The notes beneath the pieces are model-generated. The model was not told where the DNA came from. It saw only the letters and a list, made by a program, of their open reading frames with translations, and did no database searches. DNA of 64,000 bases from a virus. Its lineage: Duplodnaviria > Caudoviricetes. Every line of letters begins with the position of its first letter. Position 1 is the first letter of the stretch. The position numbers and the translations under genes are program-made. The stretch is from positions 212 to 64,211 of IMG/VR virus record IMGVR_UViG_3300031354_000002, one strand, 5' to 3'. Of the stretch, positions 27,818 through 60,184 are shown piece by piece.

Positions 27818-30457
27818 TTAACCTCCGTATTTCCATTTTTCTGTCTCCCCCCAATTTAGTCCTATCTTAGCATCTACCTTTAGTGGAACTTTCATAAACG
27901 GGGCTACTCCTTCCATTATCTCCATAAATCTCGGCACCACTTCATCCAGTATCTCGTCCTGAATTTCAAATAGCAGCGAGTCATGTACTTGGATTAGTGG
28001 GTAGCAGACATATCCATCATCTATATACCCTCTATACACCGGGACGAGTCGGCCCATAGCTTCCTTTGTTATCCCGGCGGTCCCCATCTGGAATGGGGCA
28101 TTGGTGGCTTGGCGCTCGGCCTCTGCTACAGCACTCCTGCTAGAAGATCGTATGCCGGGAATATACCTTCTTCTTCCCCACATATCGGTCACATAACCGT
28201 ACCGACGGGCCTCTGCGCGGGTTCGGTTAACGAACCGGGCTACCCCGGAATAGGTCTCAAACCACTTGTTGATCAGGTCTTGGCACAGCCACAGAGGCCA
28301 ATCTTTCTCCTTTGCCCCGCCAACTATCATCTCTCGTTGCAATCCCTTGGCCGAGATGTCGTTTAGCACGCCGAACCCGACCCTTTTCGCCGGGTATCGA
28401 TGTTTCATCTCGTCAAGCTGATTAATCGGCAGTTTGAACATGGCCGAGGCGGTCTGGCTATGGATATCCAGTCCGGACCTGAAGATATGAAGCATCCTTT
28501 CATCCCCGCTGCCGTGAGCGCAGCACCTCATGTCTGCCTGACTGTAATCAATTTCCACCAAGTGGCACCCCGGCGATGCAATATACCCGCGCTTTATCTT
28601 TAATCCCTCTTCGCTTCGGACAGGCTGAGCCATCAAGTTCACTGGTTCCCCGGACGACAATCGTCCTGTATCCGTCCGCGTCACGCGAAGATTGGACCTA
28701 ACTCGGTTGTGCTTGTCCACTACCTTGGGTATAACCTCGGCATAACTGGTTCTCAGCTTGTTATAGGATCGATAATCCCTAACCATCTGCACGATTGGGT
28801 GCTTATCCGCCAGACGCGCCAATACTTTCTCGTCCGTGCTCCAGCCAGTATCCGTCTTCTTATATCTCGGCAAATCCAGTTGGTCGTACAGCAGTTTCTG
28901 CATCTGCAGGGGCGATCCCGGATTCACATCCCATCCCGCCTCTGCGCTGATTCTAGACTGCAGTTCGTCTTCCTTGGACTGCAGATAGGCGCCAAACTCT
29001 ACAAAATGCTGCGGGTTAGTGAGGATTCCATACTTCATCATGTCCGCTACCATGGGCACAGCCCGCATGTCGCGCTCGAAAGTGCCGACCATCTCCTCCG
29101 CTTCTATCCGTCTCTTCATTATAGGGTATATCCTGATAGTAGCGTCAGCATCGGAACAGGCGTAAGTTTTGGCCTCTTCCGGGTCTATATCCCCGAGAAA
29201 TCCTTCCTCCATCACCCCCAGCTCATCCTCAACCATCTTTCTCTCGCGTGGATCGAAATTGAGCCAGCGCTTGCGAGGGTCTATATCTCCTTTCTTGGGC
29301 GAAACCATATCGCGCAGAATGCCACTGGTCTTGCGCCCTATATCCTGCGGCTGGCGCTTCTTTGGCACCCCCTGAACAAACTCCAGAACCGGGTCCGGCT
29401 TGGGCCATTTCCGCTCTACCACCTTATGCAAGTAGTCTATTGCTTTGAAATACGTAGCCGGGGCGACCGCTTCTGCATACGATCCCATCTTCATTCCGCA
29501 GTGCCTGAAAGCTAGGGGTTTCAATCCCTGAGGCTCATTCTGCAGAAGGTACGCCACTATCATCGTGTCGAAGGGGCGCGCCGGATGAATCCCCACAGAC
29601 TCCAGTATCCCCAAGTCTGACAATGTATTGTGTATAATGGACACAATATTGGGGCTAGAAACGAACATGTCCAGCGCCCATATCGCCTCGGTATCCTCCC
29701 TCATTATCATGTTGGAAGTTCCCGGCTCGACAGAGAAAGTTATACACCATAGCTCATTGTTGTTGGTATTCCACTCAACATCCACCGCTATAGTACTCCT
29801 ATTGCCCACTGCGCTCAGCACGTCTCCCGCAGTCCGGCATCGGATGTATCTCTCCTTGCCCGCAAACGGATCTTCTATATGCCGAGATGGGCGCTCCTGC
29901 CGTATTATTCCGAACAGACTCTTAAAATCTGCATATACGTTGAGCATGGTCTTGTTGTCGCGCAATCCTGCAGCCACATGATATAGCGGAACTACTATTC
30001 TTCCATTTTTCTGGAAGGGAATGCCGTGCACAGTCTCCATGTCCACGTCGCCCAGTACCCGCCTCGTGCTGAAACCTCCGATAGTGGCTATTATTTGCGG
30101 GTCAACTCTATCTATCTCATAGTCCAGATAGGCTGAGCAAGCATCAATCTCGTCCTTGCGCGGATTCCTGTTTCCGGGAGGCCTGCATTTAATACTATTC
30201 GTGAGATAGACATTCTCGCGCGGACAAGAATTTATGTTGAGGATGTGATCAAGTTCTGCCCCGCCCGCCGCCGAAGGATGGAACGGGGTCCCGTGTCTAT
30301 CCTCAAACTCGCCGGGGGCCTCGGCTATCATCATTATGGCACATTTCTTAGGGCCTTGCCCCCCAACCACGAGGTTTCTGGTCTCGCTAAGCCTGCATAA
30401 AGTGCAGTTCTTATTTAACGGCCTTCCTACCATCTTCCATCCGCAAAGTCGTTCCAA
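27818..30457 (-). CDS. polA: Family A DNA polymerase with an N-terminal family-4 uracil-DNA-glycosylase-like domain and a 3'-5' exonuclease (SPO1-type architecture)
   Basis: UDG: CTLC, AEAPG, TNSIKCRPP, ACS, LYH. Exo: DVEW, HNTLSD, YACSDAD. Pol: TGRLSS, DYSQADMR, RYPAKRVGFG, NAPFQ, QVHDSLLFE. Confidence 0.92.
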   Translation of the reverse strand: MERLCGWKMVGRPLNKNCTLCRLSETRNLVVGGQGPKKCAIMMIAEAPGEFEDRHGTPFHPSAAGGAELDHILNINSCPRENVYLTNSIKCRPPGNRNPRKDEIDACSAYLDYEIDRVDPQIIATIGGFSTRRVLGDVDMETVHGIPFQKNGRIVVPLYHVAAGLRDNKTMLNVYADFKSLFGIIRQERPSRHIEDPFAGKERYIRCRTAGDVLSAVGNRSTIAVDVEWNTNNNELWCITFSVEPGTSNMIMREDTEAIWALDMFVSSPNIVSIIHNTLSDLGILESVGIHPARPFDTMIVAYLLQNEPQGLKPLAFRHCGMKMGSYAEAVAPATYFKAIDYLHKVVERKWPKPDPVLEFVQGVPKKRQPQDIGRKTSGILRDMVSPKKGDIDPRKRWLNFDPRERKMVEDELGVMEEGFLGDIDPEEAKTYACSDADATIRIYPIMKRRIEAEEMVGTFERDMRAVPMVADMMKYGILTNPQHFVEFGAYLQSKEDELQSRISAEAGWDVNPGSPLQMQKLLYDQLDLPRYKKTDTGWSTDEKVLARLADKHPIVQMVRDYRSYNKLRTSYAEVIPKVVDKHNRVRSNLRVTRTDTGRLSSGEPVNLMAQPVRSEEGLKIKRGYIASPGCHLVEIDYSQADMRCCAHGSGDERMLHIFRSGLDIHSQTASAMFKLPINQLDEMKHRYPAKRVGFGVLNDISAKGLQREMIVGGAKEKDWPLWLCQDLINKWFETYSGVARFVNRTRAEARRYGYVTDMWGRRRYIPGIRSSSRSAVAEAERQATNAPFQMGTAGITKEAMGRLVPVYRGYIDDGYVCYPLIQVHDSLLFEIQDEILDEVVPRFMEIMEGVAPFMKVPLKVDAKIGLNWGETEKWKYGG

Positions 30458-39274: not shown

Positions 39275-41656
39275 CTACATTGTTTCCAATTTCGGCGCTG
39301 GCGGGACTGTGTTCCTGCTCACAAACGAATCAGTGAACCACTCCGGCGCATAACTCTTGTACCTGTTTATAAACCAAGTTATATTATCGTCGATTATTAT
39401 GTTCTCGCAGAAATCATCCTTGGATCGGACGCTCCTCCCGCAAGTCTGGATTAGCTGCTGCATGGCTATATACGAATTATACCCTTTGTCGCTCTTGGTC
39501 CTCGCCTTAACCAATTTGCTGGTAGAGTCCGGATATGCAATCTTTCCGATAATTTGTATCCTGCATTCGTCTCCCGGAAAATCATATCCAGTTGTGACTG
39601 ATGGAGATACCAGATACGCTGGGGCCTTGGCCTGCTTGAACAGTTTAACGGCCTTCTCAACTTCCTTGGGTCCGTGATCCATCATGCATTTCATGTTCTT
39701 GCTGTTCATCATTACCATTTCTTGTCGCTTGTACGATACGGTGTGGATAATTCCTTTGCGGTCCTGTCTGGCCCTAAGTATCTGGTCGATGCGCGTAACC
39801 CACTGCCTCAATTCCATGTCGCTGATCTTGTAGTTCATCCGCACCGTAGGGACGTGCACCAGACGCCTCCTCTCTATCGGGAATGAATGCTCGAACTCTA
39901 GCTTGGAGTATTCGTCGCGCGCTACCCCGAGTATTGCTGCGGTCTTCCCGCACATACTGGCGCTAGTCATTATTATGTTGGGGATATCTCTGAACAGCAC
40001 TCCTTCGCAGTACGGCGCGGGCCACACCGGGCACAGTTCTATGCGGTATCTGGTCACGTCACATATCCAGTTCTCCCCCATACTCCGCATCTCTTCGAGG
40101 TTAACCACAGTTCGCTTGAGCTGTGCCAGTCTGCGTCGAATTGAGCGATTGTTGGTTCCCATCCTGATACTGCGCTGTACAGATTCCACCTCGCGCTCGA
40201 CGCTGGGCAGTCTGCTGCGCGCCCACTCCCTCCATTCCGGGATTGTCATCTGGGTCGGGCGCGACGGGTAGTACGGCATCAGAACCTCATCTTCCTTGTC
40301 GAGCGATATGGTCAAAAAATTGCTGACTATATCTGGCGCATTGTGAGCCTCGTCGCACACTAGGGTATCCACATTTCCGAGTCCGTCCCCGTACATATTT
40401 TGGTTCATCCAGTATGAATAATTAGTTACCACTAGAGGGGCGCGTTGGGCGCGGCGCACGGCATTGTAATAATCGCATCCGAAGTTTTTTAGCTTGCATT
40501 CGATTCCGGCGATGCACGGCCCGTGGTCGCAGGTCGTCTCCCCGTCAGCCTCAAGGTTGCAGAAATAGGAATTTCGTCCGCGCACATCCACCATCCCAAT
40601 GGACTTGAAATCCTCCAGCAGTTGCGTCTGTAGCCCCTTGGTACTGGTTAAAATTATTGCTCGGCCACCAAGGAGAATGGAGGAAGCAGTATATTGCAGG
40701 GATTTTCCACTATTGTGTACTACAATCCCGTTAGCCACAAAATTATGGTAGTCTGGGCATTCAATATCGTAGGTTTCCTCCTCCCCGACATACCTAACAT
40801 CCACAACTCGCGAATAATGCGGAACTCCTTGTCCGAAGTTCCTGTATAGGTCATGCTCAGCATTGTGATCCCCGATCGATAAATGAATTAAGTTTGTGGG
40901 ATCATTATTGTAGTGGTCCCCATCTTTATGGTGTACGCAGTATCTAGCCGGATCTATATATCTAAGGTTTTCCCATTCATTTGAGTTCGCTCTTAGAATT
41001 TGGCAGTATTCTTCGATAGATATTCCGTTTATGTATGCCTCATATACCGCTCTATGTACTTCTATGCGTCGCGTCCACCCTCGCACCTCTTTGGAAGTGA
41101 TTGTTCTAGACGCATACGGATGATTCCACAAATTTGTTATATAACTATCGCGGAGTTTGTCTCGCACACCCCCAGACCTTACAGGCTTTATAGTGTCCAC
41201 CATAACTAGATGTTTATTAGTCAATTCTCCGAGTGGAATCCATCCGGTATCAGTCATTACCAAGTGCTCATACGTAGCTTTCAGAGTTGTCCTATCGGCT
41301 AGACAAAGTTCATATACCGGCTTGGCCCCGCTATACAGTATGTCTGTAGCCTCGTGCAACTGCACTCTGGTTCCATCATAGGACCTAACCATGGTTGGGA
41401 TAGTGTCCTTCCATTTAGGTCCTTTGTTTAGTTTATGGTGACACTTATACATTTGTCTGATGGTTTGTCTTTTGCTGCATCCACCACGATTACGCACTAT
41501 TATGGTATCTCCCGACAAACACCCCGTGGGGCATATCTGGACGCGGAAACGTTCGGGCTGTTGCGTGGCGTGAAGTATTGCCTCGCCCTGACCCGAGCGC
41601 CACCCGGCAAATTTCGCTGGAAGTCCTATCGCCTCCGGCGGAAATAATAATGACAT
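39275..41656 (-). CDS. DinG/XPD-like SF2 Fe-S helicase with an intein
   Basis: Q motif GQGEA, Walker A CPTG|SGKS, LTSTKGLQ.QL, Cys cluster, VTNYS, CDEAH, TSAS, IIHTVSY, TGYDFPGD, QTCGRSVRS.DD; 523 aa spliced. Confidence 0.9.
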   Translation of the reverse strand: MSLLFPPEAIGLPAKFAGWRSGQGEAILHATQQPERFRVQICPTGCLSGDTIIVRNRGGCSKRQTIRQMYKCHHKLNKGPKWKDTIPTMVRSYDGTRVQLHEATDILYSGAKPVYELCLADRTTLKATYEHLVMTDTGWIPLGELTNKHLVMVDTIKPVRSGGVRDKLRDSYITNLWNHPYASRTITSKEVRGWTRRIEVHRAVYEAYINGISIEEYCQILRANSNEWENLRYIDPARYCVHHKDGDHYNNDPTNLIHLSIGDHNAEHDLYRNFGQGVPHYSRVVDVRYVGEEETYDIECPDYHNFVANGIVVHNSGKSLQYTASSILLGGRAIILTSTKGLQTQLLEDFKSIGMVDVRGRNSYFCNLEADGETTCDHGPCIAGIECKLKNFGCDYYNAVRRAQRAPLVVTNYSYWMNQNMYGDGLGNVDTLVCDEAHNAPDIVSNFLTISLDKEDEVLMPYYPSRPTQMTIPEWREWARSRLPSVEREVESVQRSIRMGTNNRSIRRRLAQLKRTVVNLEEMRSMGENWICDVTRYRIELCPVWPAPYCEGVLFRDIPNIIMTSASMCGKTAAILGVARDEYSKLEFEHSFPIERRRLVHVPTVRMNYKISDMELRQWVTRIDQILRARQDRKGIIHTVSYKRQEMVMMNSKNMKCMMDHGPKEVEKAVKLFKQAKAPAYLVSPSVTTGYDFPGDECRIQIIGKIAYPDSTSKLVKARTKSDKGYNSYIAMQQLIQTCGRSVRSKDDFCENIIIDDNITWFINRYKSYAPEWFTDSFVSRNTVPPAPKLETM
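40712..41521 (-). mobile_element. Intein (270 aa) with an HNH homing endonuclease, inserted in the helicase Walker A motif
   Basis: CLSGDT start, ATYEH block B, VHRAVY...VHHKDGDHYNNDPTNL HNH, TYDIEC..YHNFVANGIVVHN|S end. Confidence 0.92.
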
Positions 41657-41947
41657 ATTTACTCCTCTGCTATGCTATCCCTTCGAATTTTCAAGAGTGT
41701 ATATTGTGTTGGCCATATTATTCGCGGCTTGAGTGTACTTCAAAGCGTCATCTGCTTTAATATTGCCCGTGATTTTGTCCGCAAGGACTTCAATCGCCTT
41801 TACCAATTTTACCTTCGCTGTTTCTGCCATAGGGTTTTACCTCCTATATGCTGCCGATTAATTCAACCGTGATCGGATCGGCTTTTCTCGACCACGGAAG
41901 CATAATATTAAGTTCACCAGTTCATATGGTGAAACGGTGGTTATGGT

Positions 41948-42130
41948 TTAATCACCCCAATAGGACATCTCTTCATCTGCTGCGCCTTCAGGATCGTCAA
42001 AATAATCCATAACTGTATCGTGCCCTGAATTTTCACTTGCATTAAAGGTATCTTCAGCAAGTTCTTTAGTAAACCCATACTGGTCTATTAATCGTTTAAT
42101 ATATCGTGCCTTCCATGTTCCTATATCCAT
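41948..42130 (-). CDS. Cassette ORF, acidic hypothetical protein
   Basis: RBS GGAGGTGA directly after an R' GTTAT box. Confidence 0.6.
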   Translation of the reverse strand: MDIGTWKARYIKRLIDQYGFTKELAEDTFNASENSGHDTVMDYFDDPEGAADEEMSYWGD

Positions 42131-42179
42131 TTCACCTCCTGCAAAATAACATCCAACTAACCAGCCGGGCGGTTAAAGG

Positions 42180-42443
42180 TTAACCATAAACATAGCCACA
42201 TTCGCATGGATCACATAAACAACGTGGGCAGGCGGATATATTTGTCCGGTCTGGATTAATTTGCTGGGTATGGGGTTCCCTGAACATATCATCCAAATGG
42301 TGTTGACCACCACATACACAACAGTCCACATTCCAAACGTTTTGTTCATCTATCCAAAATGACGCCTGTAACGCGTCCATGTAATCGTCAATATTGCTGT
42401 CTGGACAAATAAGCTTTATTTTGTGATTATTAATTCTATTCAT
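42180..42443 (-). CDS. Cassette ORF, Cys-rich hypothetical protein
   Basis: Stop TAA is part of the TAAC box; RBS GGAGGGA after the upstream R' box. Confidence 0.6.
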   Translation of the reverse strand: MNRINNHKIKLICPDSNIDDYMDALQASFWIDEQNVWNVDCCVCGGQHHLDDMFREPHTQQINPDRTNISACPRCLCDPCECGYVYG

Positions 42444-42493
42444 ATTCCCTCCAAAAGACATAACGCCCAAATAACCAGCCGGGCGGCTAAAGG

Positions 42494-42724
42494 TTAATCT
42501 TTAGCACATTCAGGTCTATGTTGATTGTACCCGTGGCAGTATGGACATTCCTTCCCGTCTGAGTTAATTTGATGGTTATATTCAAGTTGTTGATCATGAC
42601 GTCCAGCGTCATATCCTTTTATAAATGTTGATAGTTGTTTTTCCTGTGCCGCATGAGCATGGCCGCTTCTTGCTGATATTATTTCCCAACATAATTTTAT
42701 TCTATTTTTAAATGATAATTTCAT
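42494..42724 (-). CDS. Cassette ORF, hypothetical protein with a C-terminal CPYC motif
   Basis: Stop TAA is part of the TAAC box. Confidence 0.55.
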   Translation of the reverse strand: MKLSFKNRIKLCWEIISARSGHAHAAQEKQLSTFIKGYDAGRHDQQLEYNHQINSDGKECPYCHGYNQHRPECAKD

Positions 42725-42752
42725 AAAGGCCCCTGAGAATATAACAATTGAA

Positions 42753-42992
42753 CTAAGGCGCAAGCAGCTTGCCACAAGCCATACAATAACCTAGGCTTGC
42801 TGGTGGGCGCAGAGGGTATTTGCACTGGCAAAATGGTAGCTTGTCGGCCTTGAGTGATGGATTATGAGGAGTGTCGGGCGATATAGATTCAAGATCATGC
42901 GCACATTCCTCAAACCCGTGAGCTGCACAGTGTTCCCCGTGATGATTATATCCAGCGGCTGCATTTCTCCACTTTAAAATTAATTCCATCAT
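42753..42992 (-). CDS. Cassette ORF whose C-terminal half is translated attC sequence
   Basis: HNPSLKADK...ACGKLLAP* is encoded within the 42741-42865 attC. Confidence 0.55.
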   Translation of the reverse strand: MMELILKWRNAAAGYNHHGEHCAAHGFEECAHDLESISPDTPHNPSLKADKLPFCQCKYPLRPPASLGYCMACGKLLAP

Positions 42993-43008
42993 TTTTTTAC
43001 TGACATCG

Positions 43009-43230
43009 TCATTTATTTATTGATTCCAATGAGACATATTTTATTTTTTGCTTTTTAGTCCAGTGGCTCTCATATGGAGATATTTCGGGACAATTGGGGT
43101 TAAAGCAAATAGGCTTACCAGCCAAATGACCATCATTCCACTGTCCCCACCCTATTGATTTACACTTGCAATCAGGGCAAATATTCCGCCAGTAATAAGT
43201 TTTTCTGATAAGTTTTTTTATTATTCCCAT
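43009..43230 (-). CDS. Cassette ORF, Zn-ribbon hypothetical protein
   Basis: CPDCKC...CFNPNCP; RBS GGAGGT after an R' box. Confidence 0.55.
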   Translation of the reverse strand: MGIIKKLIRKTYYWRNICPDCKCKSIGWGQWNDGHLAGKPICFNPNCPEISPYESHWTKKQKIKYVSLESINK

Positions 43231-43298
43231 AAGATTTTTTATACCTCCTGAAATATAACACCCAACTAACCAGCATCAGTCTGGTTGAGTAATTTTGG

Positions 43299-43445
43299 TT
43301 ATTGCTTTATACAGACAGCCCCCGGTATACCGCCTTTAACATCACAAGGGGTACTGCAACTATTTTCAAAATATTCAACAGATTCGTGTTCTCTTTTATG
43401 ATAACAATTTTTAACCTGACATTCTTCTGACTTATTACATTTCAT
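43299..43445 (-). CDS. Cassette ORF, 48-aa Cys-rich peptide
   Basis: Hand translation MKCNKSEECQVKNCYHK...CIKQ*; TAA lies in the R'' box. Confidence 0.5.
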   Translation of the reverse strand: MKCNKSEECQVKNCYHKREHESVEYFENSCSTPCDVKGGIPGAVCIKQ

Positions 43446-43513
43446 TTTATCACCTTAAAACAACACCCAGCTACCAGCCGGGCGGTTAAAGGTTATTTAC
43501 GATGAAACTTGGG

Positions 43514-43951
43514 TTATAGGTTTTCCCCTGCTATATCTTGTATCTTACCTAAAATATCAACTGCTCTGTAGATTTCTTTCGACAATAAATCTACATCAAT
43601 AAAATTAAACTGAAAAATAGTTTTAGTTAATTTTTCAGTTTCTAATAATTTAGATTTATAGTACTCAGCTTCACACCTTGGGCAACACCAATCACTATTA
43701 ACTGATCTTGTGTCTGTGTTGCAAGGATTGCCCGTAACCATACATCTAGGAATTAATTCCACTGCCTTCTTTGCCCGGTCTGAGTTGGCTTGCTGTTTTT
43801 GCAGTCTCTTGTTGTCAACATACCCACACACAGACGCATAACAGTCGTCACATACTTCATGGTTGGCAACAAAACGCCTAATTCTGAGAGTGATAGGTAT
43901 CTTGCACAGACACATATAGCATGTAGTTCTTTTGTCTGTTGTTTCCGCCAT
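43514..43951 (-). CDS. Cys-rich hypothetical protein (from MAETT)
   Basis: CYMC...CDDC, CMVTGNPC...CPRC; RBS GAGGA. Confidence 0.55.
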   Translation of the reverse strand: MAETTDKRTTCYMCLCKIPITLRIRRFVANHEVCDDCYASVCGYVDNKRLQKQQANSDRAKKAVELIPRCMVTGNPCNTDTRSVNSDWCCPRCEAEYYKSKLLETEKLTKTIFQFNFIDVDLLSKEIYRAVDILGKIQDIAGENL

Positions 43952-44243
43952 ATTATTCCTCATTGTGATATAACTTTTTCCATTCTTCAAGTGCGGCCTT
44001 GTGTATACGACAAACAAATGTATGCCCCGTTCTGGCATCAGGTTGCCATTTATCAAGATTACAATTACATTGCATCTCCAAAGCTTTTTTGTCTGCTAGG
44101 GGTTTGAGGCTTTCCCTATTCATCTTTTTCATTTTTTACCCTCCTGATTATCTCGTATAAATTTCTTTCAATCTTATCTAATCGATCCGAAATAAATATT
44201 GTTTGAATACACAAAAACACACATATCACAATTAAGAATACCA

Positions 44244-44474
44244 TCATTTATATCGTCCTTTCTTTAGAATTAATTCTCTTCCATCCTTCAAGGAAATTAC
44301 ACCATCTTTTTTGCCGTGCCCACAACATGAAGCCGCCGTCTCTATATTGGCTGCATTTAGGGCTGCTACGATATCGGCAATACATAAATCAATGCCTTGA
44401 ACCCTTCCTTTTATTGGCATAGGTATTTGGCATCCATACGATCCCATTTCACAGCATTTACTAGGTTTTTTCAT
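44244..44474 (-). CDS. Conserved small protein (IDxCIA...LN...T.ASCCGH family)
   Basis: IDLCIADIVAALNAANIETAASCCGHG; RBS AAGGGAG. Confidence 0.65.
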   Translation of the reverse strand: MKKPSKCCEMGSYGCQIPMPIKGRVQGIDLCIADIVAALNAANIETAASCCGHGKKDGVISLKDGRELILKKGRYK

Positions 44475-44544
44475 ATGATCTCCCTTACCAAAAATAATTA
44501 ATTATCGCAATCCCAGTCCCCCAACCCCGGAGGTTGGGCAGGGC

Positions 44545-44687
44545 AGTTATTCGCTGGCGCCGTGCGCCGAGAGGGAGGAGTGGTGGGGCAACTACCGACT
44601 TTCTAAGAACCTGCCTGACGTAGATAAATTTTTTACGCCCCACCAATTCCTCCACTCTCAGCACAACCCCCCAGCCCGCAAATAACC
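44545..44687 (-). ncRNA. 143-nt rod-like structured RNA within a ~300-nt non-coding leader
   Basis: Nested pairings GGTTATTT/GAATAACT, GCTGG/CCAGC, TGTGC/GCGCA, GAGAG/CTCTC, GGAGG/CCTCC, GGTGGGGC/GCCCCACC; mismatches resolve as G-U only on the minus strand. Confidence 0.6.
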
Positions 44688-44786
44688 CTATCAGATAGCC
44701 CTATAGCTCGGCCAGAGGCCGAGGGGGCAGGGGGAATTGAAAAGTGAAAGGACCAAAACCAACCCCTTGTGACCGCCCGCCCACCC

Positions 44787-44816
44787 ATTCTATCATATGA
44801 CGCGACGCCTCGTCAA
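44787..44816 (-). promoter_or_regulatory. sigma70-type promoter driving the structured leader and cassette array
   Basis: TTGACG-N18-TAGAAT with extended TG; the inverted repeat TGACG-N8-CGTCA overlaps the -35 box. Confidence 0.7.
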
Positions 44817-45187
44817 CCCCCCTAGCAGCAGCAGGTGCTCGGCAGCTCCATGAGCCACGCCACGTGGTGCTTGGCATATGCTTCATTGCCGTCGGGGTAC
44901 TCTTCGCAGGGGCCGATCATGGATTCCTCCGGAGCCAGAGTCTCCCCGCGAGGAACCTTGAAAATGTCCACCCCTCCCATAAACCCTGAGTTTCGGACAT
45001 ATACCCTGGCCCCTGTCTTGCTGGCCACTCTTTTAATGCTCTCCATAAAACAGTAGTTACATGTCATTTTTTTTTCCTCCTTCAGTTTATTGATTGATAT
45101 GCTTATAGCCTCAACTGCGCATCTTTTATTAGATTCAATCCACCATGCACATTTTTCCTCCTGACAATCAGTCATTGATATTCATTA

Positions 45188-53104: not shown

Positions 53105-56100
53105 TTAACGTTTTCTTCCCCTTGATATTGTCTGTCTGGCCCTTTTCTTGGAAAGGCCCTTCTTCTTATCTTTTTCCCTGAGATACTCAATTCCAGCTTC
53201 GGTTCTGAATGGGCCTCCTAGCACTGCCCGAACCTGCTCCGATGTTCCCCTGACCCTAAACAACTGATGCCCTCTGACGTCCGTGACCTCTCCTCGCGCC
53301 ACAGCCTCTATTCCCTGAATGGTTCTGTCCCACTGGACCCCGGCAGTAGTATGATACCTAAGCAGCCACTGGCGGAGCTTGGTGAAATCTTCGTATTTCA
53401 TAAAGCGCTGTATTCCGGTGGCCAGATCACTGAAATACTCGAACGGGGTAGTTCCGCGCCCGGACTGAGGCCCCCCGACATATTCCCCGACGTAAGGGAT
53501 CTGCCCCATAATATATCCGAAGAACGGGACAAATGAGCTTACAGTCCATGGCTTTCTCCCGATCGATTTATCGACAACGGCATTAGTCACCATTATTGCA
53601 GCAACCCATCTCCCCAATATCATCAAGCGTCGACGTATGGTCGCTCTCCCGGCATCGCTGTCCGGGTCTACCTTTTCCCCTTCTGGCGGAGCCTCCTTTG
53701 AGGAGATAGTGTGGTATATACCGACCCTTCCGATAGTGCTTCTCAATATCGGAACATTTATCTCGCGCACTGTGTTGAACACGTCGAAAGCAAATGTCTG
53801 GAATGGGGTCACTGCTCCAACTTCTCTAGCCCTCAGCAGCCCCGGAAGATCTGCGTAGTTGTACATGCTCTGGGTCTTGGCTCCTCCCTCGGAGGCGTAC
53901 TCCCACAGCGCCCGTCCCGTAAGGCCCAAATGATTCTTTCCATAGTAATATGCTGAAGCTACAGCATGCCCAGTCAGTAAATTCTCTATAGCCGATGTAA
54001 GGAAGTTAGCATACTCGGTAACAGAATCCAATTTGCTGGCCTGCAGCCTTTTGTTTTTGGTGATAGAATCCTGCACATCTTGATAGTGTAGTTTCCCGCC
54101 CCATCTGGATTTGACTATTTGGCTGTACGCTATCTGCTGAACAGCCTGATTCATCGTCGGGCTTGTCAGGTAGGACAGCCCTTTGATGTTAGCGATAGTG
54201 CCATATCTGGCAAAGGTTATTCCAGCGGAGGATGTCTGAATGAACATATTCCACGTGAAGTTCAGCGGAAAAACTGCCCTAGACAGATTTCTGCGCAGCG
54301 ATAGTAGTCCTCCGTGAACCTTCTCCGGAAGGACTCTCTTGGCAACCTTGGTTATGGCCGGGCTAGTTCCGGCGAACACCTCACTGGTCCACGTATTTAT
54401 CGCATCTGCGGAGTGATCAAGTCCGACGCTTTTCATAACCGCGCTATATATTTTATTGTTGTGGATTATATTAGTGTCGAATATATCCCTCCCGGACGTA
54501 TCTGCATAATCGGCCATCAGAACAGACAGTCTGCGCTCCTTCATATAGTCCGGGATTCCTCCTTCCTTGGGCAGCGCTCTTGGGTTGAAGGGTTGGTTCG
54601 GCTGTATAAAGTCCGGCATCTCTGGCCGCTCCATCACCAAATGGATATTGTGCATGGAGCCATAAAGTTTGGCCCACGCATTCTGCGCAAGTATGTCCGG
54701 GGAGTAGAATGCCCTGCGCGGGATTTCCTTCTGTTTCCTCAACCGACGTGCAGTGTTGACATTGGCCCGCATCCGGGTATATAGAACCCTAGCCTCGATC
54801 GCGGCCTCGACAATATCCCTGTGGTCCTTGGGCTTGATTTTTACCAGCGCCTCTTTTACCCCCTTCATGCTAAGTATGTCGTCGACCTTCTTTCCGAAGG
54901 CCTTGCTCTGGCTAACATGCTCTAGCACTGCTGTGACGGCCTCGTCTTTCTTGCGGGTCCGGATTTTGTGCTTGTCCAGTATATCGGCTACCTGAGATTT
55001 TTGATAATCCACCCATTTGAGCTTCGCCATCATTGTGGAGCGAGCTGGCCACAGGACATGAGACTGGACCGGACCCCCGAAATGGCCTTGGTCAATGGCC
55101 TGCATCATCCGGGTCGGGTCCGTCCACATTTCCACGCGCTTGCTGATATCGGTGTATGCGGAAATTGTGTCCTTAAACTTGTCTAGAACAAAATATCCAC
55201 TCTGGCGTATGGCGGGCTTGATATTTCCAGCTTCCGTGGTAATAGTGGCAATGTACTGCTTGGCCTTCTCGTCGAACCTGTACACCTCGGACGGAAGCAA
55301 CTCGCCAATGGTAGGCATATTGTCGAAGTATACCTTGATATTGGCCGGGTCCTTCTCCTTGAGATATGCTATGGCGCTTTTGTCCAGCGGAGAACCCTCT
55401 ATCGGGGTATAGAACTGCTTCTTGTACGCCTCGACGCGGGCTTTGACCTTCTCCGCGCGGCCAGTTTTGGCAGCAGAGTCGATGGAGAAAAGCGTCTGAC
55501 CCTTGTGGAGAACAGACTCGCGCATCGCATCAGTAATTTCAATATAATGAACCTTTGCCTTATTCACGGCTATTCTATCGATATTGTCGGGGGTTACTTG
55601 TTTCTGGTCTACTCTGCCCTCCCATATTTCCAGTTTCCCGGTCTTCGCTCCCCATTGCTTGCCATATTTTTCGGCGAATCCGGGGAGGCGTTGGTCGTAG
55701 AAAGTTTTCATACCCTCGCCGCCAATGGTTAGGCCTTCCCCCTCCACGCTACCCCGGCTCTCCCCAGACCGAATGCGATCGGCAAGCTGCTTCCCTACAA
55801 GATCTTGAAGTGTAACCTCTTGGTTATGTATCTTGGTAGAACCCTGTAACGGTATAACTTCGCTGAACACTACCTTCCCATCTTTGTGTCCAGTTATAGT
55901 AGCATACCCATTCCCAGCGCTGTCATTCATTAATTTATCAGCTATATCCTGCACCGGCGCCCTATATGACCCATCGGTTCCTTCAACAAATTGTCCTGTT
56001 CTATTGTTGAATACTGCATAGTGGTTATCGGACAGCCTCTCAACACTGAGATTATCATTGCTTACGTTCTGCCAACTGATACTATCCACGACCCGTCTCG

Positions 56101-59100
56101 TCGCCTTTGACCAGCGATCCACCTGCTGTATTCCGGTCGTCCACGCCAGTCTGTCATATCCCCTCTCAGCGGCCCAACGCAACATTCTCTTGAGAGTTAG
56201 CTCGTGCCAAGTGTCAAGGAAAGGAGCACTTGGCAGCGCAGATTTAGCCCCCTCAACGCCTCCAGCATGCGCCAACAATTCGTTATACTCTTCCTCTAAG
56301 GGTTTCTTCTTGGCCTCGTACTCTTCCAACAACCGGGCGTCTTCACTGCTAACCATTCCAGTCTCCTTTGCTGTTTGCAGCCAGTCGCTCTGTACTTCCT
56401 CAAGAAATAGCACACTGTTTCCTTCCGTATCCGCTCTGGAATTGAAACGGGTGTGCGCTAAGACGTTTGGCTCTTCCCAGTGATCAGACTGAAAATTTGG
56501 CCCGGCAGGAACTTGCTCATACGTACCAATCATAGTGTATGGGGCATTGGTTGCGGGGAGTGTCAGCAGCAATTCTCCATAATCCTCACCTCCGGGAAGA
56601 ACATATTCCTTATACTGCGTATCGCCGGGCATTAATTCTTCAGGGAGCACTTCCTCATCTATAGCTGGCAATCCATCATTCCTTATCCCTTTTATCGCAG
56701 CAGTAACTTCTGGGACAACATCTGGGTCCAGACCAGCGATAACGTCCTCAGGGATTTGAGATATGGCACTCATCAATTCCTGTCGAACCTGCTCAGCGGA
56801 AGAATAATTTCCCCAACCATCCACAATATTTCTTATAGTGGTCATTTCTATATCAGATAGAAATTCTTCGTGCAACACTCCTTCCTCCATTAGGATTCCC
56901 AGCCTGTAGTCAGAGTTATATATAAGAGAGGTTACTTCATTTGCTATCTCCATTGCAACTTCTTCGTCCCCTCCTTCTCCCTCCTTAAATACTTCGCTAA
57001 CTTGGACTTTATTGGAATTAACCCATTCTGCGAAAGCCTGCCGGTCGATCTTGCCCTGCTTGGTCTGATTATCAGACAGCCATTGCTCAACTCCCATCCA
57101 TTTCATCTCGGCGGGTTTCACCCCTTGCTTTAACAACCAATTTGGCACGGACTGAGCTTTGGTAGGCATAGATGGATCGGCGGCTACTTTCGCTAGTTGG
57201 CTAAATCCCCACTGCACCGGAGTCTGTTCCCCGGCAAATGAGGTAGTTGGATTTCTAGTTACCCCAATCGGTCGCGTCCTCCATACCCCGCTGCGGAGAC
57301 TCTCCCATACAACCTTGACATCGGCGCTGGATGTGAATCCCTTCCCTCTGGCCCAGTTCCATACTCGCTCCAACAATGCCTTCAATTTGTTGAATATCCT
57401 TGTAAGCCAGTCCGGTCGTTCTTTCTTCCTGCCCTCAAGGAAGTCAAAATAGTCGTCTGCCTCGGCTTCTTCATTGTCACCATAGAATTTGGAAACGCGC
57501 TCACTCTCTGCGCGGGGCAGCATCCACGCTTTCATCAAATGGTATGTCTCGTGGACGGTAGTCTTTTTCAAGCGCCCAGTTCCCTGATCCAGTGACAACT
57601 GCATTATGGCGAAGAGGCCCGTCGGATCGAATGTCGTGGCCCCAAGCACTCTCTCCATCTGCTTGCCAAGCTGCGACCACTGCTGAATGCTCTCGTCCAC
57701 GCCCTCTTCCGGAACTTCCACTATGGATTTAAGCTCGACATCAACCCGGTCCATCAATTCCTGATCGGCTCCAGCCTCCTTCATCCATTTGGGTATCTCA
57801 GACACCAGCCTAAGTATCCTGCCCTGCTGCTTGGGGGGTATCGAGTTCAGGGCGCGGTTGTTCACATCCCCGACATAACCCCCTTTGGATAGCTTCGACA
57901 GTAGCTCCTGCATTTTCCTCAAGTTGGTAGATGATCCACCGATAATGCCACTCTCTACCACACTGCTATACGGGATATTGAATTCCTCGGCGATCATGAA
58001 GTGCATTGGCTGGGCGCTTTCATAGCGTACCCCCTCATCGGTAAGTATCCATATATTTCCCTTCTTTCCCTCCGTAGTGGTATCTGACACTACAGTGCGG
58101 TAATTCGTCGGGGATATTCCCCCTCCCTTAGACAATTTTGTGCGCCCGACATATCCATCGCGGAGCTTAAGTATGTCGTACTGGTCTTCCTTCCCGGCTT
58201 TCTTCAGGGCATTTTCCAGATTTCCTCTGCGCTTGTACGGCTTTCCTGACTGCGTGACGAAATCCTCTTCGGGCTTGGCAGGCGGAGGAGTCTCAGGTAC
58301 TGGTATTCCCAGTTGCTCCAGTCTGGCCTTGGTGACAGTAGACCCATGATGCTCACCGCCCTCGATATTGTACAGAGGAGACTGCCCCTCGCCGATCGAG
58401 GTAAGATCATGGTACCCGAGAAATTTAGCAGTGGGCGCATCGGACGGAGCTTTCGTCGCTATTGGTATTCCTCCCGGTCTGCGTATCGCCGCTGGTATAT
58501 ATGGGGTGTCCTCGATAGTGGACCTCCTTTGCGGGATAGTTGGGGGTGGAGGCCTATTTGGGTTGCGCGGTACAATTCCTGCTGTCCTTCTGGGGCGAGG
58601 AGCAATAGTTCCAGTCTTGTACGGAGACTCCTCAACCGAAGTCTGACGCTGAGGCAGCGAAGGTGGCGGCTTGCGTATAGTAGGTCTGGTCGTAGGCGGT
58701 ATTCCGCCCCCGGTTTTCTCTGGGTATTTGACAGTTCCTGTCTCGTACGGGGACTCCTCAATTGTGGATCTGCCCGATGGAATATCTGGTGGGGCCTTTC
58801 TTGCGATCGGGAATATCCCTCTGCCAGCCTTCTTCGGATACTCTATTGCCCCGGTATCGTACGGGGACTCCTCCACAGTGGACCGCCCTCTCCGAATATT
58901 TATAATTCTCTCAGCATTCTCCGCTTCCTCTACTGCTCCCTCGAATCCGGGAACCTCCGGCTCTATATCATTTGATCGGCCAGCTCGGGTAGGAACTTCT
59001 CTGGGGTCTCTCAGTAGTCCAGCCACGGGCCTTCCAGTTGTGGTCTCTCCCGCCCTGTGAGTGACGGTATATTCTCTTCCGGCCTTCAAGCCGAGCTTGC

Positions 59101-60184
59101 TCTTTACCTTTTTCCACCATGGCTTGTCGGCTACCCTGACTATCTTCTCGGCTGGTATATCAATGCGGATACCCTCGCGAGCCGCCCTAGCCCACTCTCC
59201 TTTCTTTCCGGAAAGCGCTTTGAGAGCATCCAGCTCCTCTGGGGTAAGCAGTGAGGGGTCCAAGGACAGGGCATCCTTAACCTGCTTTGGACTTATGCTG
59301 ATTGTTTTCGGTAGATTGTATTCAGTTATAGTCTCCCTTAGAAATTTCTCCCTTATGTTTTCCGGGATATTTTTTCCTTTGGATATCAGCCCGCCCTTTA
59401 CCAGCATGTCTGCCCCGTCAAGGATAGCTTTAACTCCTTCGCTGGTATCTTCTGGCAGCCACTGCGATGGAGTTGAGTATTTCCCGAACTTGTATTTATC
59501 TCCCTTTATCCCTGTAGCTACTGCATTCTCTACTTCTCCAAGTGCGGTATACGTGGCTAATCCTAGGGTAGCCCCGACTGGATTCGCCATGAAAAAAGCT
59601 ACTACTGGCCCGGCCAAAAGCTGTGATGTATTCGGGTTGTCCTTAAAGCCAACTTCTTTAGATATCTGCTCCTGATTGGTGTACGCCTCGGACGGTCTTA
59701 CTCCGAACTCCTTGGCTATCGCCATAGCATTCTGTGCTTTAGCCGTAAGTTTGTCTTTCCCTTCCCGGAATAACATGTCCTTTACTTTATCCGCGAAGGT
59801 GCGCTCCGGGGCTACATTGAAAGATGGCTGCTCCTTTGAGGGGGGTACTGCACTCTGTGCTGGGGCCGCAGCTTGTACAGGTTCAGGAGCCTTATCCACC
59901 GGGGTTAGCTTAAACTTCCCGGAGGACTTGGCTGAGTAGTACCTGTTCCCTTTCTTGGAGATAGTATTTCCCAGTTCCGATTCAGCGTCAACAGTCTCTT
60001 TATACGTAGGGTGGCCTGTTCCTTTTAGGACCATTCCCGTCCTCGGGTCTAGGCTGGGCCAGTGCCCGGATCCGTCTTGGCCGAGGCCAGCCTCTCTGGC
60101 AGTAATATAGTCGTACCCGTCACCTTCAGGGTCGAACGCCGGTTCGGGCGCGCTATCTACTGGTATAGCTTTAAAAGGAGACAT
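53105..60184 (-). CDS. Giant (2359 aa) internal virion/DNA-ejection polyvalent protein
   Basis: Last of three consecutive internal-protein-like genes; Pro-rich repeats, HETYH zincin-like motif, LFLEEVQSDW...GMKTFYD domain, helical C-terminal region. Confidence 0.75.
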   Translation of the reverse strand: MSPFKAIPVDSAPEPAFDPEGDGYDYITAREAGLGQDGSGHWPSLDPRTGMVLKGTGHPTYKETVDAESELGNTISKKGNRYYSAKSSGKFKLTPVDKAPEPVQAAAPAQSAVPPSKEQPSFNVAPERTFADKVKDMLFREGKDKLTAKAQNAMAIAKEFGVRPSEAYTNQEQISKEVGFKDNPNTSQLLAGPVVAFFMANPVGATLGLATYTALGEVENAVATGIKGDKYKFGKYSTPSQWLPEDTSEGVKAILDGADMLVKGGLISKGKNIPENIREKFLRETITEYNLPKTISISPKQVKDALSLDPSLLTPEELDALKALSGKKGEWARAAREGIRIDIPAEKIVRVADKPWWKKVKSKLGLKAGREYTVTHRAGETTTGRPVAGLLRDPREVPTRAGRSNDIEPEVPGFEGAVEEAENAERIINIRRGRSTVEESPYDTGAIEYPKKAGRGIFPIARKAPPDIPSGRSTIEESPYETGTVKYPEKTGGGIPPTTRPTIRKPPPSLPQRQTSVEESPYKTGTIAPRPRRTAGIVPRNPNRPPPPTIPQRRSTIEDTPYIPAAIRRPGGIPIATKAPSDAPTAKFLGYHDLTSIGEGQSPLYNIEGGEHHGSTVTKARLEQLGIPVPETPPPAKPEEDFVTQSGKPYKRRGNLENALKKAGKEDQYDILKLRDGYVGRTKLSKGGGISPTNYRTVVSDTTTEGKKGNIWILTDEGVRYESAQPMHFMIAEEFNIPYSSVVESGIIGGSSTNLRKMQELLSKLSKGGYVGDVNNRALNSIPPKQQGRILRLVSEIPKWMKEAGADQELMDRVDVELKSIVEVPEEGVDESIQQWSQLGKQMERVLGATTFDPTGLFAIMQLSLDQGTGRLKKTTVHETYHLMKAWMLPRAESERVSKFYGDNEEAEADDYFDFLEGRKKERPDWLTRIFNKLKALLERVWNWARGKGFTSSADVKVVWESLRSGVWRTRPIGVTRNPTTSFAGEQTPVQWGFSQLAKVAADPSMPTKAQSVPNWLLKQGVKPAEMKWMGVEQWLSDNQTKQGKIDRQAFAEWVNSNKVQVSEVFKEGEGGDEEVAMEIANEVTSLIYNSDYRLGILMEEGVLHEEFLSDIEMTTIRNIVDGWGNYSSAEQVRQELMSAISQIPEDVIAGLDPDVVPEVTAAIKGIRNDGLPAIDEEVLPEELMPGDTQYKEYVLPGGEDYGELLLTLPATNAPYTMIGTYEQVPAGPNFQSDHWEEPNVLAHTRFNSRADTEGNSVLFLEEVQSDWLQTAKETGMVSSEDARLLEEYEAKKKPLEEEYNELLAHAGGVEGAKSALPSAPFLDTWHELTLKRMLRWAAERGYDRLAWTTGIQQVDRWSKATRRVVDSISWQNVSNDNLSVERLSDNHYAVFNNRTGQFVEGTDGSYRAPVQDIADKLMNDSAGNGYATITGHKDGKVVFSEVIPLQGSTKIHNQEVTLQDLVGKQLADRIRSGESRGSVEGEGLTIGGEGMKTFYDQRLPGFAEKYGKQWGAKTGKLEIWEGRVDQKQVTPDNIDRIAVNKAKVHYIEITDAMRESVLHKGQTLFSIDSAAKTGRAEKVKARVEAYKKQFYTPIEGSPLDKSAIAYLKEKDPANIKVYFDNMPTIGELLPSEVYRFDEKAKQYIATITTEAGNIKPAIRQSGYFVLDKFKDTISAYTDISKRVEMWTDPTRMMQAIDQGHFGGPVQSHVLWPARSTMMAKLKWVDYQKSQVADILDKHKIRTRKKDEAVTAVLEHVSQSKAFGKKVDDILSMKGVKEALVKIKPKDHRDIVEAAIEARVLYTRMRANVNTARRLRKQKEIPRRAFYSPDILAQNAWAKLYGSMHNIHLVMERPEMPDFIQPNQPFNPRALPKEGGIPDYMKERRLSVLMADYADTSGRDIFDTNIIHNNKIYSAVMKSVGLDHSADAINTWTSEVFAGTSPAITKVAKRVLPEKVHGGLLSLRRNLSRAVFPLNFTWNMFIQTSSAGITFARYGTIANIKGLSYLTSPTMNQAVQQIAYSQIVKSRWGGKLHYQDVQDSITKNKRLQASKLDSVTEYANFLTSAIENLLTGHAVASAYYYGKNHLGLTGRALWEYASEGGAKTQSMYNYADLPGLLRAREVGAVTPFQTFAFDVFNTVREINVPILRSTIGRVGIYHTISSKEAPPEGEKVDPDSDAGRATIRRRLMILGRWVAAIMVTNAVVDKSIGRKPWTVSSFVPFFGYIMGQIPYVGEYVGGPQSGRGTTPFEYFSDLATGIQRFMKYEDFTKLRQWLLRYHTTAGVQWDRTIQGIEAVARGEVTDVRGHQLFRVRGTSEQVRAVLGGPFRTEAGIEYLREKDKKKGLSKKRARQTISRGRKR
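58499..58890 (-). repeat. Four ~38-42-aa Pro-rich tandem repeats (RST(V/I)EESPY.TG) in the giant protein
   Basis: Nucleotide anchors gtacgg(g/a)gactcctc at 58859, 58745 and 58619, and a degenerate copy at 58499. Confidence 0.85.

What the first reader, a model, noticed from the sequence alone, without database searches (positions are those of the whole stretch)
41902..44474. Integron-style gene-cassette array in a phage with no integrase
Seen: AT-rich small ORFs separated by attC-like sites. 42741-42865 has canonical geometry (TAAT-N5-ACTCAAG ... CTTAGT-N6-GTTAT, with the extra C in L''). 43255-43302 reads TAAC-N7-ACTCAAC ... GTTAGT-N5-GTTAT. Several stop codons form the TAAC box, and each R' box is followed by RBS+ATG. 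A sigma70 promoter and structured leader sit at the head of the array, like Pc. Established: attC sites are recombined as folded single strands by IntI. Inference: the phage carries a cassette platform loaded or shuffled in trans by the host integron integrase (phage replication supplies ssDNA), making it both a vector for and a user of host cassettes. The many tiny Cys-rich products are candidate anti-defence or host-takeover proteins.
Basis: partly seen in the sequence, partly recalled or inferred. Interest (0 to 1): 0.78.

Follow-up and report, generated by a model that had tools for sequence, protein, structure and literature searches.

The report
Integron gene cassettes inside a phage
A 64-kb uncultured phage carries a short row of real integron gene cassettes with no integrase of its own, and their recombination sites match those in chromosomal integrons of sulfate-reducer-type bacteria; such arrays are already known in phages, so this is a new example with a few unusual details.

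Summary
I built covariance models only from attC sites next to true integron integrases in bacterial genomes of the order of a Desulfobacteraceae MAG. Run over the whole 64-kb window without filters, they gave five hits at E<=10. All five lie in this array. Four are co-oriented with the genes: 42458-42581, 42739-42867, 42144-42273 and 43253-43304, minus strand, 39 to 20 bits.

The 38-45-nt repeat between the genes is the 3' arm of full-length attCs. Their 5' arms lie inside the upstream ORFs. The arms of one phage attC are about 95% identical to an attC in a cassette-dense contig binned into that MAG.

No tyrosine recombinase is encoded, so this is a CALIN (attC cluster lacking an integrase). 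CALINs in virulent phages are published (Qi et al. 2023, PMC9892861), and this scan has noted similar arrays on other DNA.

Untested: recombination by a host IntI. Two of the four sites have a mutated R'' triplet.

Unusual features:
- Three cassette ORFs read through their attC and gain Cys-rich tails.
- One apparent attC spans about 355 nt.
- The same attC type occurs in unrelated phages.

The parts
42144..42273 (-). attC_a, 130 nt. R'' is CCATACC (42273-42267, AAC mutated to ACC). R' is GTTATTT (42150-42144). Its 5' arm and variable part are translated as the tail of the gene at 42180-42443.
   Evidence: R1 30.8 bits, E 3e-6. R2 25.2 bits, E 1.3e-4. The L-box helix with a bulge forms in the bottom-strand fold.
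42458..42581 (-). attC_b, 124 nt, the best site. R'' is ATATAAC (42581-42575). R' is GTTATGT (42464-42458).
   Evidence: R1 40.4 bits, E 4e-9. R2 39.1 bits, E 1.4e-8. The bottom-strand MFE shows a paired R box, an unpaired spacer and an L helix with bulges. 71% identical overall to L033:550-678, with near-identical arms.
R'' is TCATAAT (AAC mutated to AAT). R' is GTTATAT (42745-42739). It overlaps the last ~37 codons of the gene at 42753-42992.
   Evidence: R2 30.5 bits, E 4e-6. R1 16.9 bits. Arms about 95% identical to the attC at L033:260-391, with a diverged middle. tblastn of the tail hits L033:261-365.
R'' is CAATAAC and holds the stop codon of the gene at 43299-43445. R' is GTTATAT.
   Evidence: R2 19.8 bits, E 0.0045. 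81% identical to L015:4332-4379, which scores 36.9 bits.
43458..43497 (-). Orphan attC 3' arm (AACCGCCCGGCTGG-TAGCTGGGT-GTTGTTT) between the genes at 43514-43951 and 43299-43445.
   Evidence: Member of repeat family D1. Not found as a whole attC on this strand by R1 or R2.
43770..43815 (-). attC 5' arm (CAAAAAC-AGCAAGC-CAACTCAGACCGGGC) inside the gene at 43514-43951, translated as QQANSDR. It is the likely partner of the orphan 3' arm, giving a site of about 355 nt.
   Evidence: Best duplex partner of the 3' arm among all windows in 43497-44500: -30.7 kcal/mol against -16.2 +/- 3.5 for shuffles, 0 of 500 as good. Repeat D3.
43299..43445 (-). Cassette ORF g7, 48 aa, Cys-rich. The cassette runs 43463-43259.
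   Evidence: ORF list. No Pfam or PHROG family.
43009..43230 (-). Cassette ORF g6, 73 aa. It shares a 514-nt cassette (43258-42745) with g5.
   Evidence: No homologue in 5.8 billion proteins.
42753..42992 (-). Cassette ORF g5, 79 aa. The last ~37 aa are encoded by attC_c.
42494..42724 (-). Cassette ORF g4, 76 aa, cassette 42744-42464. The N-terminal ~48 aa form a small domain found as stand-alone 49-55-aa proteins in Mu-like phages. The tail is encoded by attC_b.
   Evidence: Homologues P0002-P0007 cover 62-68% of the query. A 56%-identical copy followed by the same attC type lies in unrelated phage G001.
42180..42443 (-). Cassette ORF g3, 87 aa, cassette 42463-42150. The tail (QQINPDRTNISACPRCLCDPCECGYVYG) is encoded by attC_a.
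41948..42130 (-). ORF g2, 60 aa, directly after the R' of attC_a. It is followed by a hairpin (41913-41933), not by a detectable attC.
   Evidence: PHROG 12309, E 9e-5. Terminator-like site.
43514..43951 (-). ORF g8, 145 aa, holding the internal attC 5' arm.
43953..44474 (-). Three small ORFs (59, 43 and 76 aa) at the head of the AT-rich island, with no attC sites between them.
44787..44816 (-). Sigma70-like site TTGACG-18-TAGAAT with TG, about 310 nt upstream of the first small ORF.
   Evidence: Consensus scan only.

Best explanation
The region is a CALIN: a cluster of genuine integron attC recombination sites without an integron integrase, inside the genome of a tailed phage. Four co-oriented attC sites, plus a fifth that is oversized or disrupted, bound four small gene cassettes of 205-514 nt. 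These sit in a minus-strand operon between the lysis/regulatory genes and the replicative helicase. The sites belong to the attC family stockpiled in chromosomal integrons of the order of a Desulfobacteraceae MAG, presumably Desulfobacterales, the likely host group. Shown here: site identity, layout, family link, absence of a phage integrase, foreign base composition, and the same site type in unrelated phages. Inferred: the cassettes entered phage DNA from that cassette pool while the phage replicated in an IntI-positive cell, either by IntI acting in trans or by capture of a piece of an array. They are now expressed by read-through from an upstream phage promoter. The conserved ~45-nt 3' arms also serve as patches of homology where co-infecting phages swap neighbouring genes. 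Two sites look intact. Two have a mutated R'' triplet and may be decaying.
For: IntI (TIGR02249) scores above its cut-off in 100 of 201 genomes of the order of the Desulfobacteraceae MAG G003. The 18-kb stretch upstream of one such intI (L058) holds 13 canonical attCs (xxxTAAC...GTTRRRY, 67-134 nt). Their consensus fold has 12 pairs with compensatory changes. Model R1, built from them, finds 14 attCs on the expected strand beside another genome's intI at 33-94 bits. Non-seed attCs in L058 score 26-69 bits. In the window, with filters off, every hit of R1 and of the broader R2 at E<=10 except one weak R1 hit (54149-54191, 9.7 bits, E 5.7) falls in the array. Four of them lie on the gene strand in consecutive stop-to-start gaps. 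The arms of attC_c are about 95% identical to L033:260-391, and attC_b resembles L033:550-678. In both cases the arms are conserved and the middle has diverged. L033 itself carries 8 attC hits in 3.5 kb. The array is 39.6% GC against 49.1% for the window, and bacterial arrays are 34-40%. No PF00589 recombinase is found in this phage or in phages G001 and G002. The contig is a phage: terminase, major head protein, PolA and helicase. G001 and G002 share only three proteins with this phage but carry the same attC type. They differ from each other in gene content next to these sites while being ~97% identical elsewhere. Phage-borne attCs have been shown to be recombined by IntI1 (PMC9892861).
Against: The models are lineage-specific and home-made. 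IntegronFinder's own model and thresholds were not run, and the E-values are rough. attC_a and attC_c have a substitution in the R'' AAC triplet. attC_d, at 52 nt, is below the usual size range. Folding energies are not better than shuffles (z -0.55 to -1.44), though one genuine bacterial site is no better (z -0.15). The host is inferred only from site similarity and one binned 3.5-kb contig, and the MAG holding that contig has no IntI above the cut-off. In the G001/G002 comparison the sequence just 3' of G|TT is not cleanly partitioned, so exchange exactly at the IntI cut point is not shown. No close relative of this phage was found to compare cassette order.
Confidence: 0.8

Rival explanations
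1. Fossil array. A piece of a host chromosomal cassette array was captured once by illegitimate or homologous recombination, and the attC sites no longer recombine with IntI. They persist as intergenic linkers (stop, weak hairpin, RBS). Later shuffling among phages is ordinary homologous recombination at the conserved arms, as with PeSL motifs of T4-like phages. This accepts the attC ancestry but denies present integron function.
For: The R'' triplet is mutated in two of four sites, whereas relatives in the MAG-binned contig keep AAC. One site is disrupted or oversized. The chimeric copy in G002 keeps a B-type SNP 3' of GTTA, so a crossover at G|TT is not supported. Hairpin plus U-rich tail is flagged as terminator-like at two sites. 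PeSL precedent: PMC2839356 and PMC4122927.
Against: attC_b and attC_d keep perfect R boxes and bulged L helices. Arms are conserved while the middles diverge, which is the signature of selection on the recombination structure. The same site type occurs in several unrelated phages.
Confidence: 0.35
2. These are not integron sites. The repeats are phage-specific regulatory elements (terminator/attenuator plus translation-initiation linker, PeSL-like) that resemble attC by chance.
For: They sit exactly between stop and RBS. Terminator-like hairpins are seen. No Rfam family matched.
Against: Models trained only on IntI-adjacent bacterial attCs pick exactly these sites, and in the window essentially nothing else. 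The arms are near-identical to attCs in a dense cassette array. No sigma70 promoter lies in the element, because a -10-like TATNNT would start the transcript inside the RBS. It is unclear whether Rfam holds an attC model at all, so one search is uninformative.
Confidence: 0.04
3. Assembly artefact: a bacterial cassette array was wrongly joined into a phage contig.
For: The record is metagenome-assembled, linear and without terminal repeats. The island has a deviant GC content.
Against: The array is internal, flanked on both sides by phage genes on the same strand. A complete 55.9-kb phage with terminal repeats (G001) and its relative G002 carry the same site type internally. One cassette gene has phage homologues.
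Confidence: 0.03

Closest known systems
[quoted passage not shown]
   Same: At least two co-oriented attC sites bound small cassettes in a phage genome with no intI. The proposed role is as a route for cassette traffic between phage and host. In that paper five of six tested phage attCs were recombined by IntI1.
   Different: Here the site family can be tied by sequence to IntI-adjacent arrays of one bacterial order. Three ORFs read through their attC. One site appears to span about 355 nt. The phage also carries a PurZ-like gene. No recombination assay was done here.
Sedentary chromosomal integrons with lineage-specific attC families
   Same: Same attC architecture (R box, short spacer, L helix with bulged bases, variable middle) and the same sequence family. 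Small AT-rich cassettes, with ORFs co-oriented with R''-to-R'.
   Different: No intI and no identified attI. Only 4-5 sites. Two sites have a mutated R''. The array is embedded in a phage operon.
PeSL motifs (promoter-early stem-loop) of T4-like phages; PMC2839356, PMC4122927
   Same: Conserved composite motifs running from the upstream stop codon to the downstream RBS and ATG. They flank ORFans in hyperplastic regions and act as points of exchange between otherwise unrelated sequences.
   Different: PeSLs contain a strong sigma70 promoter and a terminator hairpin and recombine by homology. The elements here have no promoter, are homologous to integron attC sites, and have their 5' arms inside ORFs.
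Synthetic attC sites embedded in coding sequence; Nivina et al. 2020, PMC7439510 (abstract only)
   Same: attC structure superimposed on other sequence content, including protein-coding sequence.
   Different: Those are designed sites. Here natural attCs appear to be translated as C-terminal tails.

Membership tests
Integron attC site | Inverted core sites: R'' RYYYAAC at the 5' end, R' GTTRRRY at the 3' end, mutually complementary | tested here: met
   attC_b has ATATAAC/GTTATGT and attC_d has CAATAAC/GTTATAT, with AAC/GTT intact and paired. attC_c (TCATAAT) and attC_a (CCATACC) each have one substitution in AAC. R' GTTAT also occurs in genuine attCs of the bacterial arrays, e.g. L058:3335-3467.
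Integron attC site | L''/L' helix with extrahelical bases, an unpaired spacer next to the R box, and a variable terminal structure | tested here: met
   16-17 of 18 consensus pairs form in the three full-length sites, with bulges at the model's bulge positions. The bottom-strand fold of attC_b shows R box, spacer and bulged L helix.
Integron attC site | Scores with an attC covariance model | tested here: met
   R2 (43 IntI-adjacent bacterial attCs) gives 39.1, 30.5, 25.2 and 19.8 bits, E 1e-8 to 5e-3 over 128 kb searched. IntegronFinder's own model was not available.
Integron attC site | Size range of natural sites (about 57-141 nt, from my own knowledge) | tested here: inconclusive
   The sites of 124, 129 and 130 nt fit. 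attC_d is 52 nt. The putative fifth site spans about 355 nt.
Integron attC site | Recombined as a folded bottom strand by IntI at G|TT | not testable with these tools
   Needs an attC x attI assay. The G001/G002 junctions are uninformative.
Complete integron | intI gene (tyrosine recombinase with the IntI-specific insertion) next to the array | tested here: not met
   No PF00589 match at E<=1 in the 64,211-bp record.
Complete integron | attI site and Pc promoter at the head of the array | tested here: inconclusive
   A sigma70-like site lies 1.3 kb upstream of the first attC. No attI can be recognised by sequence.
CALIN | At least two attC sites close together (within 4 kb, from my own knowledge) with no integron integrase nearby | tested here: met
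   Four sites lie within 1.2 kb, and no integrase is found in the genome.
PeSL (T4-type promoter-early stem-loop) | Strong sigma70 promoter within each motif | tested here: not met
   No -35/-10 pair at any repeat copy. The spacing to the RBS is incompatible.
PeSL (T4-type promoter-early stem-loop) | Stable stem-loop acting as terminator or attenuator | tested here: inconclusive
   Terminator-like hairpins are flagged at 43484-43464 and 42485-42464, but the U-tail is not conserved in copies from other phages.

The most novel reading that the evidence does not exclude
One attC subfamily doubles as coding sequence. In at least eight sites (three here, two in the Desulfobacteraceae MAG contig, four in two other phages, some of which are copies of each other) the cassette ORF is in frame +1 relative to R''. 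It reads through R''-L'' (giving Q-x-N-x-D-R) and the variable terminal structure, and stops just before the 3' arm. The tails all carry CxxC/CxxC-type motifs. This would mean the 'variable' part of these attCs is under protein-level selection and adds a zinc-ribbon-like tail to whatever cassette it follows. One copy would have expanded to a ~290-nt coding insert. Phages and host integrons would then share a pool of such tail-tagged mini-proteins.
Probability: 0.3. Interest if true: 0.65.

Novelty: new member of a known kind. Interest (0 to 1): 0.45.

Why it matters
It adds a well-anchored case to the still short list of phage-borne attC clusters. The sites can be traced by sequence to the chromosomal integron pool of a specific environmental bacterial order in which half of the sampled genomes carry IntI. 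The same site type occurs in unrelated phages. That supports phages as carriers and users of integron cassettes outside the clinical, Gram-negative setting. It also gives concrete sites for an IntI assay. The read-through attCs, if real at the protein level, would show that natural attC sites can be superimposed on coding sequence.

Tried and rejected
1. Rfam scan of 40-46 kb gave only two chance-level hits. I do not know that Rfam holds an attC family, so this says nothing about attC.
2. I first read the 45-nt repeat as a PeSL-like regulatory linker or palindromic operator. I tested sigma70, extended -10, MotA-box-like, sigma54 and Bacteroidota -7 layouts by eye, and ran the promoter scan. 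None fitted, because the transcript would start inside the RBS.
3. I considered two alternative small hairpins (TAACC/GGTTA and CGCCCGG/TTGGGCG) as the functional unit. I dropped them once the full-length attC with its 5' arm in the upstream ORF was seen.
4. My hand-written attC pattern-plus-fold detector worked poorly on real arrays. It was replaced by self-similarity and covariance models.
5. Searches for close relatives of this phage found none: blastn against INPHARED, helicase-based search of IMG/VR, PolA tblastn at no more than 31% identity. Cassette order among true relatives could therefore not be compared.
6. The 20-mer GCTGGTTATTTGGGCGTTAT also matches inside apparently unrelated sequence in some metagenome contigs. 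By my reading it would encode AGYLGVI. Those loci (L019, L024, L029) were set aside.
7. g6 has no homologue at all. g3 has one, on a 600-nt contig whose DNA could not be fetched.
8. Folding z-scores do not discriminate attCs, not even genuine ones.
Full report
WHAT IS THERE. The window is almost all of a 64,211-bp IMG/VR virus record rated complete. It encodes a large terminase, a major head protein, a UDG-PolA fusion, a DEAD_2 helicase with an intein and a PurZ-like enzyme. No cultured phage is close to it. Between the helicase gene (39275-41656) and a GC-rich non-coding stretch (44475-44820) lie eleven small minus-strand ORFs of 43-145 aa. None gives a significant Pfam match, and PHROGs gives only weak matches to families of unknown function. 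The island is AT-rich, 37-41% GC against about 49% for the window.

THE OBSERVATION. A repeat family of four copies also fills the stop-to-start gaps at 42146-42192, 42460-42506, 43255-43302 and 43459-43505. Its core, CCAGCCGGGCGG, occurs in this genome only here.

A FIRST, WRONG READING. I initially took the 45-nt repeat for a regulatory linker like the PeSL motifs of T4-type phages (PMC2839356, PMC4122927). The same element turned up in two phages that share only three proteins with this one: G001, 55.9 kb with terminal repeats, and G002. It also occurred in metagenome contigs and in a 3.5-kb contig binned into a Desulfobacteraceae MAG. G001 and G002 are about 97% identical, yet differ in gene content next to these elements.

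THE DECISIVE TEST. Integron integrases (TIGR02249) score above the curated cut-off in 100 of 201 genomes of the order of that MAG. I fetched the DNA on the array side of several of these intI genes. In one locus (L058), 13 repeated elements are textbook attC sites: xxxTAAC at the 5' end, GTTRRRY at the 3' end, 67-134 nt long. Their RNAalifold consensus shows the R box, a short unpaired spacer, an L helix with three bulge positions and an unstructured middle. Twelve of its 18 pairs show compensatory changes.

The 3' arm of these bacterial sites (AAACCGCCCGTCTGGTTATTTGGGGCGTTAA) is plainly the phage 'repeat' (TTTAACCGCCCGGCTGGTTATTTGGGCGTTAT). Their 5' arm (ATAAC-ATCCAAAT-CAACTCAGACCGGGC) recurs inside the phage ORFs just upstream. 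There it is translated as the QQINxDR motif that I had earlier noticed as repeat D3.

Model R1, built from the 13 sites, finds 14 attCs on the correct strand beside the intI of a different genome, at 33-94 bits. It also finds further non-seed sites in L058 at 26-69 bits. Model R2 was rebuilt from 43 such bacterial sites in five bacterial loci.

Scanning all 64 kb on both strands without filters, R1 gives six hits at E<=10 and R2 gives five. All lie in the array except one 9.7-bit R1 hit with E 5.7. The R2 hits on the gene strand are:
- 42458-42581: 39.1 bits, E 1e-8
- 42144-42273: 25.2 bits, E 1e-4
The fifth R2 hit (43399-43498, plus strand, 13.6 bits, E 0.29) overlaps an orphan 3' arm and I treat it as noise.

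LINK TO A BACTERIAL-TYPE ARRAY. The MAG contig L033 carries 8 attC hits in 3.5 kb, all on one strand. Its site at 260-391 matches attC_c at about 95% in both arms while the middle has diverged. Its site at 550-678 relates to attC_b in the same way. Conserved arms with a free middle are what selection on the recombination structure should produce. The base composition of the phage array (39.6% GC) matches bacterial arrays (34-40%), not the phage (49.1%).

ANATOMY. Cutting at G|TT of each R' gives these cassettes:
- 43463-43259 (g7)
- 43258-42745 (g6 and g5)
- 42744-42464 (g4)
- 42463-42150 (g3)
g2 follows the last R'. ORFs and attCs share the canonical orientation, R'' to R' with the gene, as in the bacterial arrays. 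No tyrosine recombinase is encoded by this phage or by G001 and G002. This is therefore a CALIN.

Two sites (attC_b, attC_d) have intact, complementary R boxes. attC_c has AAT and attC_a has ACC in place of the R'' AAC, whereas their L033 relatives have AAC.

A fifth site seems to be split. An attC 5' arm inside g8 (43770-43815) is the best duplex partner of the orphan 3' arm at 43458-43497, at -30.7 kcal/mol against -16.2 +/- 3.5 for shuffles. This implies a site of about 355 nt whose middle encodes the C-terminal ~95 aa of g8, or a site broken by an insertion.

AN UNUSUAL FEATURE. In the bacterial arrays, cassette ORFs with long upstream reading frames almost always stop in R'' (xxxTAAC). 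Here g3, g4 and g5 are in the +1 frame. So are the ORFs at L033:260 and L033:550, G001 32956 and probably 27305, and G002 3900 and 10086. They read through R'', L'' and the variable middle and stop just before the 3' arm. The tails all contain paired Cys or His motifs, for example CPRCLCDPCEC, CPYC...C and CPDC...CPNC. The N-terminal 48 aa of g4 match stand-alone 49-55-aa proteins of Mu-like phages, so the tail is an addition. Part of the 'Cys-rich' look of the array therefore comes from translated attC sites. Whether the tails are functional is open.

MECHANISM. Shown: site identity, array layout, family link, absence of an integrase, and the same site type in unrelated phages. Inferred: the cassettes came from the integron cassette pool of the host lineage, are expressed by read-through from an upstream promoter (consensus-level site at 44816-44787), and can still be exchanged. 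For the two intact sites a host IntI acting in trans is plausible. Phage attCs are recombined by IntI1 in the assay of Qi et al. (PMC9892861). It is untested here. The G001/G002 junctions do not resolve a crossover at G|TT. Homologous exchange at the conserved 45-nt arms, PeSL-style, is an equally live route.

NOVELTY. Integron components and CALINs in temperate and virulent phages were described in 2023 (PMC9892861). This scan has also recorded many similar phage arrays on other DNA. This is a new member of a known kind. Its extras are a traceable bacterial attC family, read-through attCs, an oversized site, and a phage that also carries a PurZ-like gene.

Noticed in passing
window 25359-26915 and 27818-30457: An adenylosuccinate-synthetase-like (PurZ-like) gene interrupted by an intein, and a UDG-exonuclease-PolA fusion. 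This may be a 2-aminoadenine (Z-genome) phage, which raises the question of how attC hairpins and IntI would behave on such DNA.
   Followed up: no
window 39275-41656: DEAD_2/Helicase_C_2 helicase carrying an intein, directly downstream of the cassette array.
   Followed up: no
L034 9907-10004 (minus strand): A Mu-like phage contig that encodes a 49-aa homologue of g4 has a 33.7-bit attC hit abutting that gene's start, in the opposite orientation.
   Followed up: no
L061 (G076:C1:4407408-4425408): Next to an IntI gene there are at least seven tandem copies with a period of 1609 nt. Each contains a 131-nt element bounded by GTCCAAC...GTTGGAC that folds equally on both strands. This may be a tandemly amplified cassette.
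   Followed up: no
Order of the Desulfobacteraceae MAG (G003): Integron integrase above the NCBIfam cut-off in 100 of 201 sampled genomes, several with 2-7 copies. That is a very high prevalence.
   Followed up: partly
window 44475-44820: GC-rich non-coding stretch with a 28-nt imperfect inverted repeat (44562-44589 / 44637-44664) between the sigma70-like site and the first small ORF.
   Followed up: no
window 53105-60184: A 2359-aa ORF with no Pfam family at E<=0.001.
   Followed up: no
window 41913-41947: After g2 the sequence CCATAAC-CACCG-TTTCACC...GGTGAA-CTTAATA-TTATG looks like a decayed mini-attC, with A in place of the G of GTT. It is also flagged as terminator-like. Neither covariance model detects it.
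   Followed up: partly
L008 13381-13447 versus L010 3640-3530: At the same position in the ~97%-identical phages G001 and G002, two different attC-like sites precede the same downstream gene. Homology resumes about 12 nt after GTT.
   Followed up: partly
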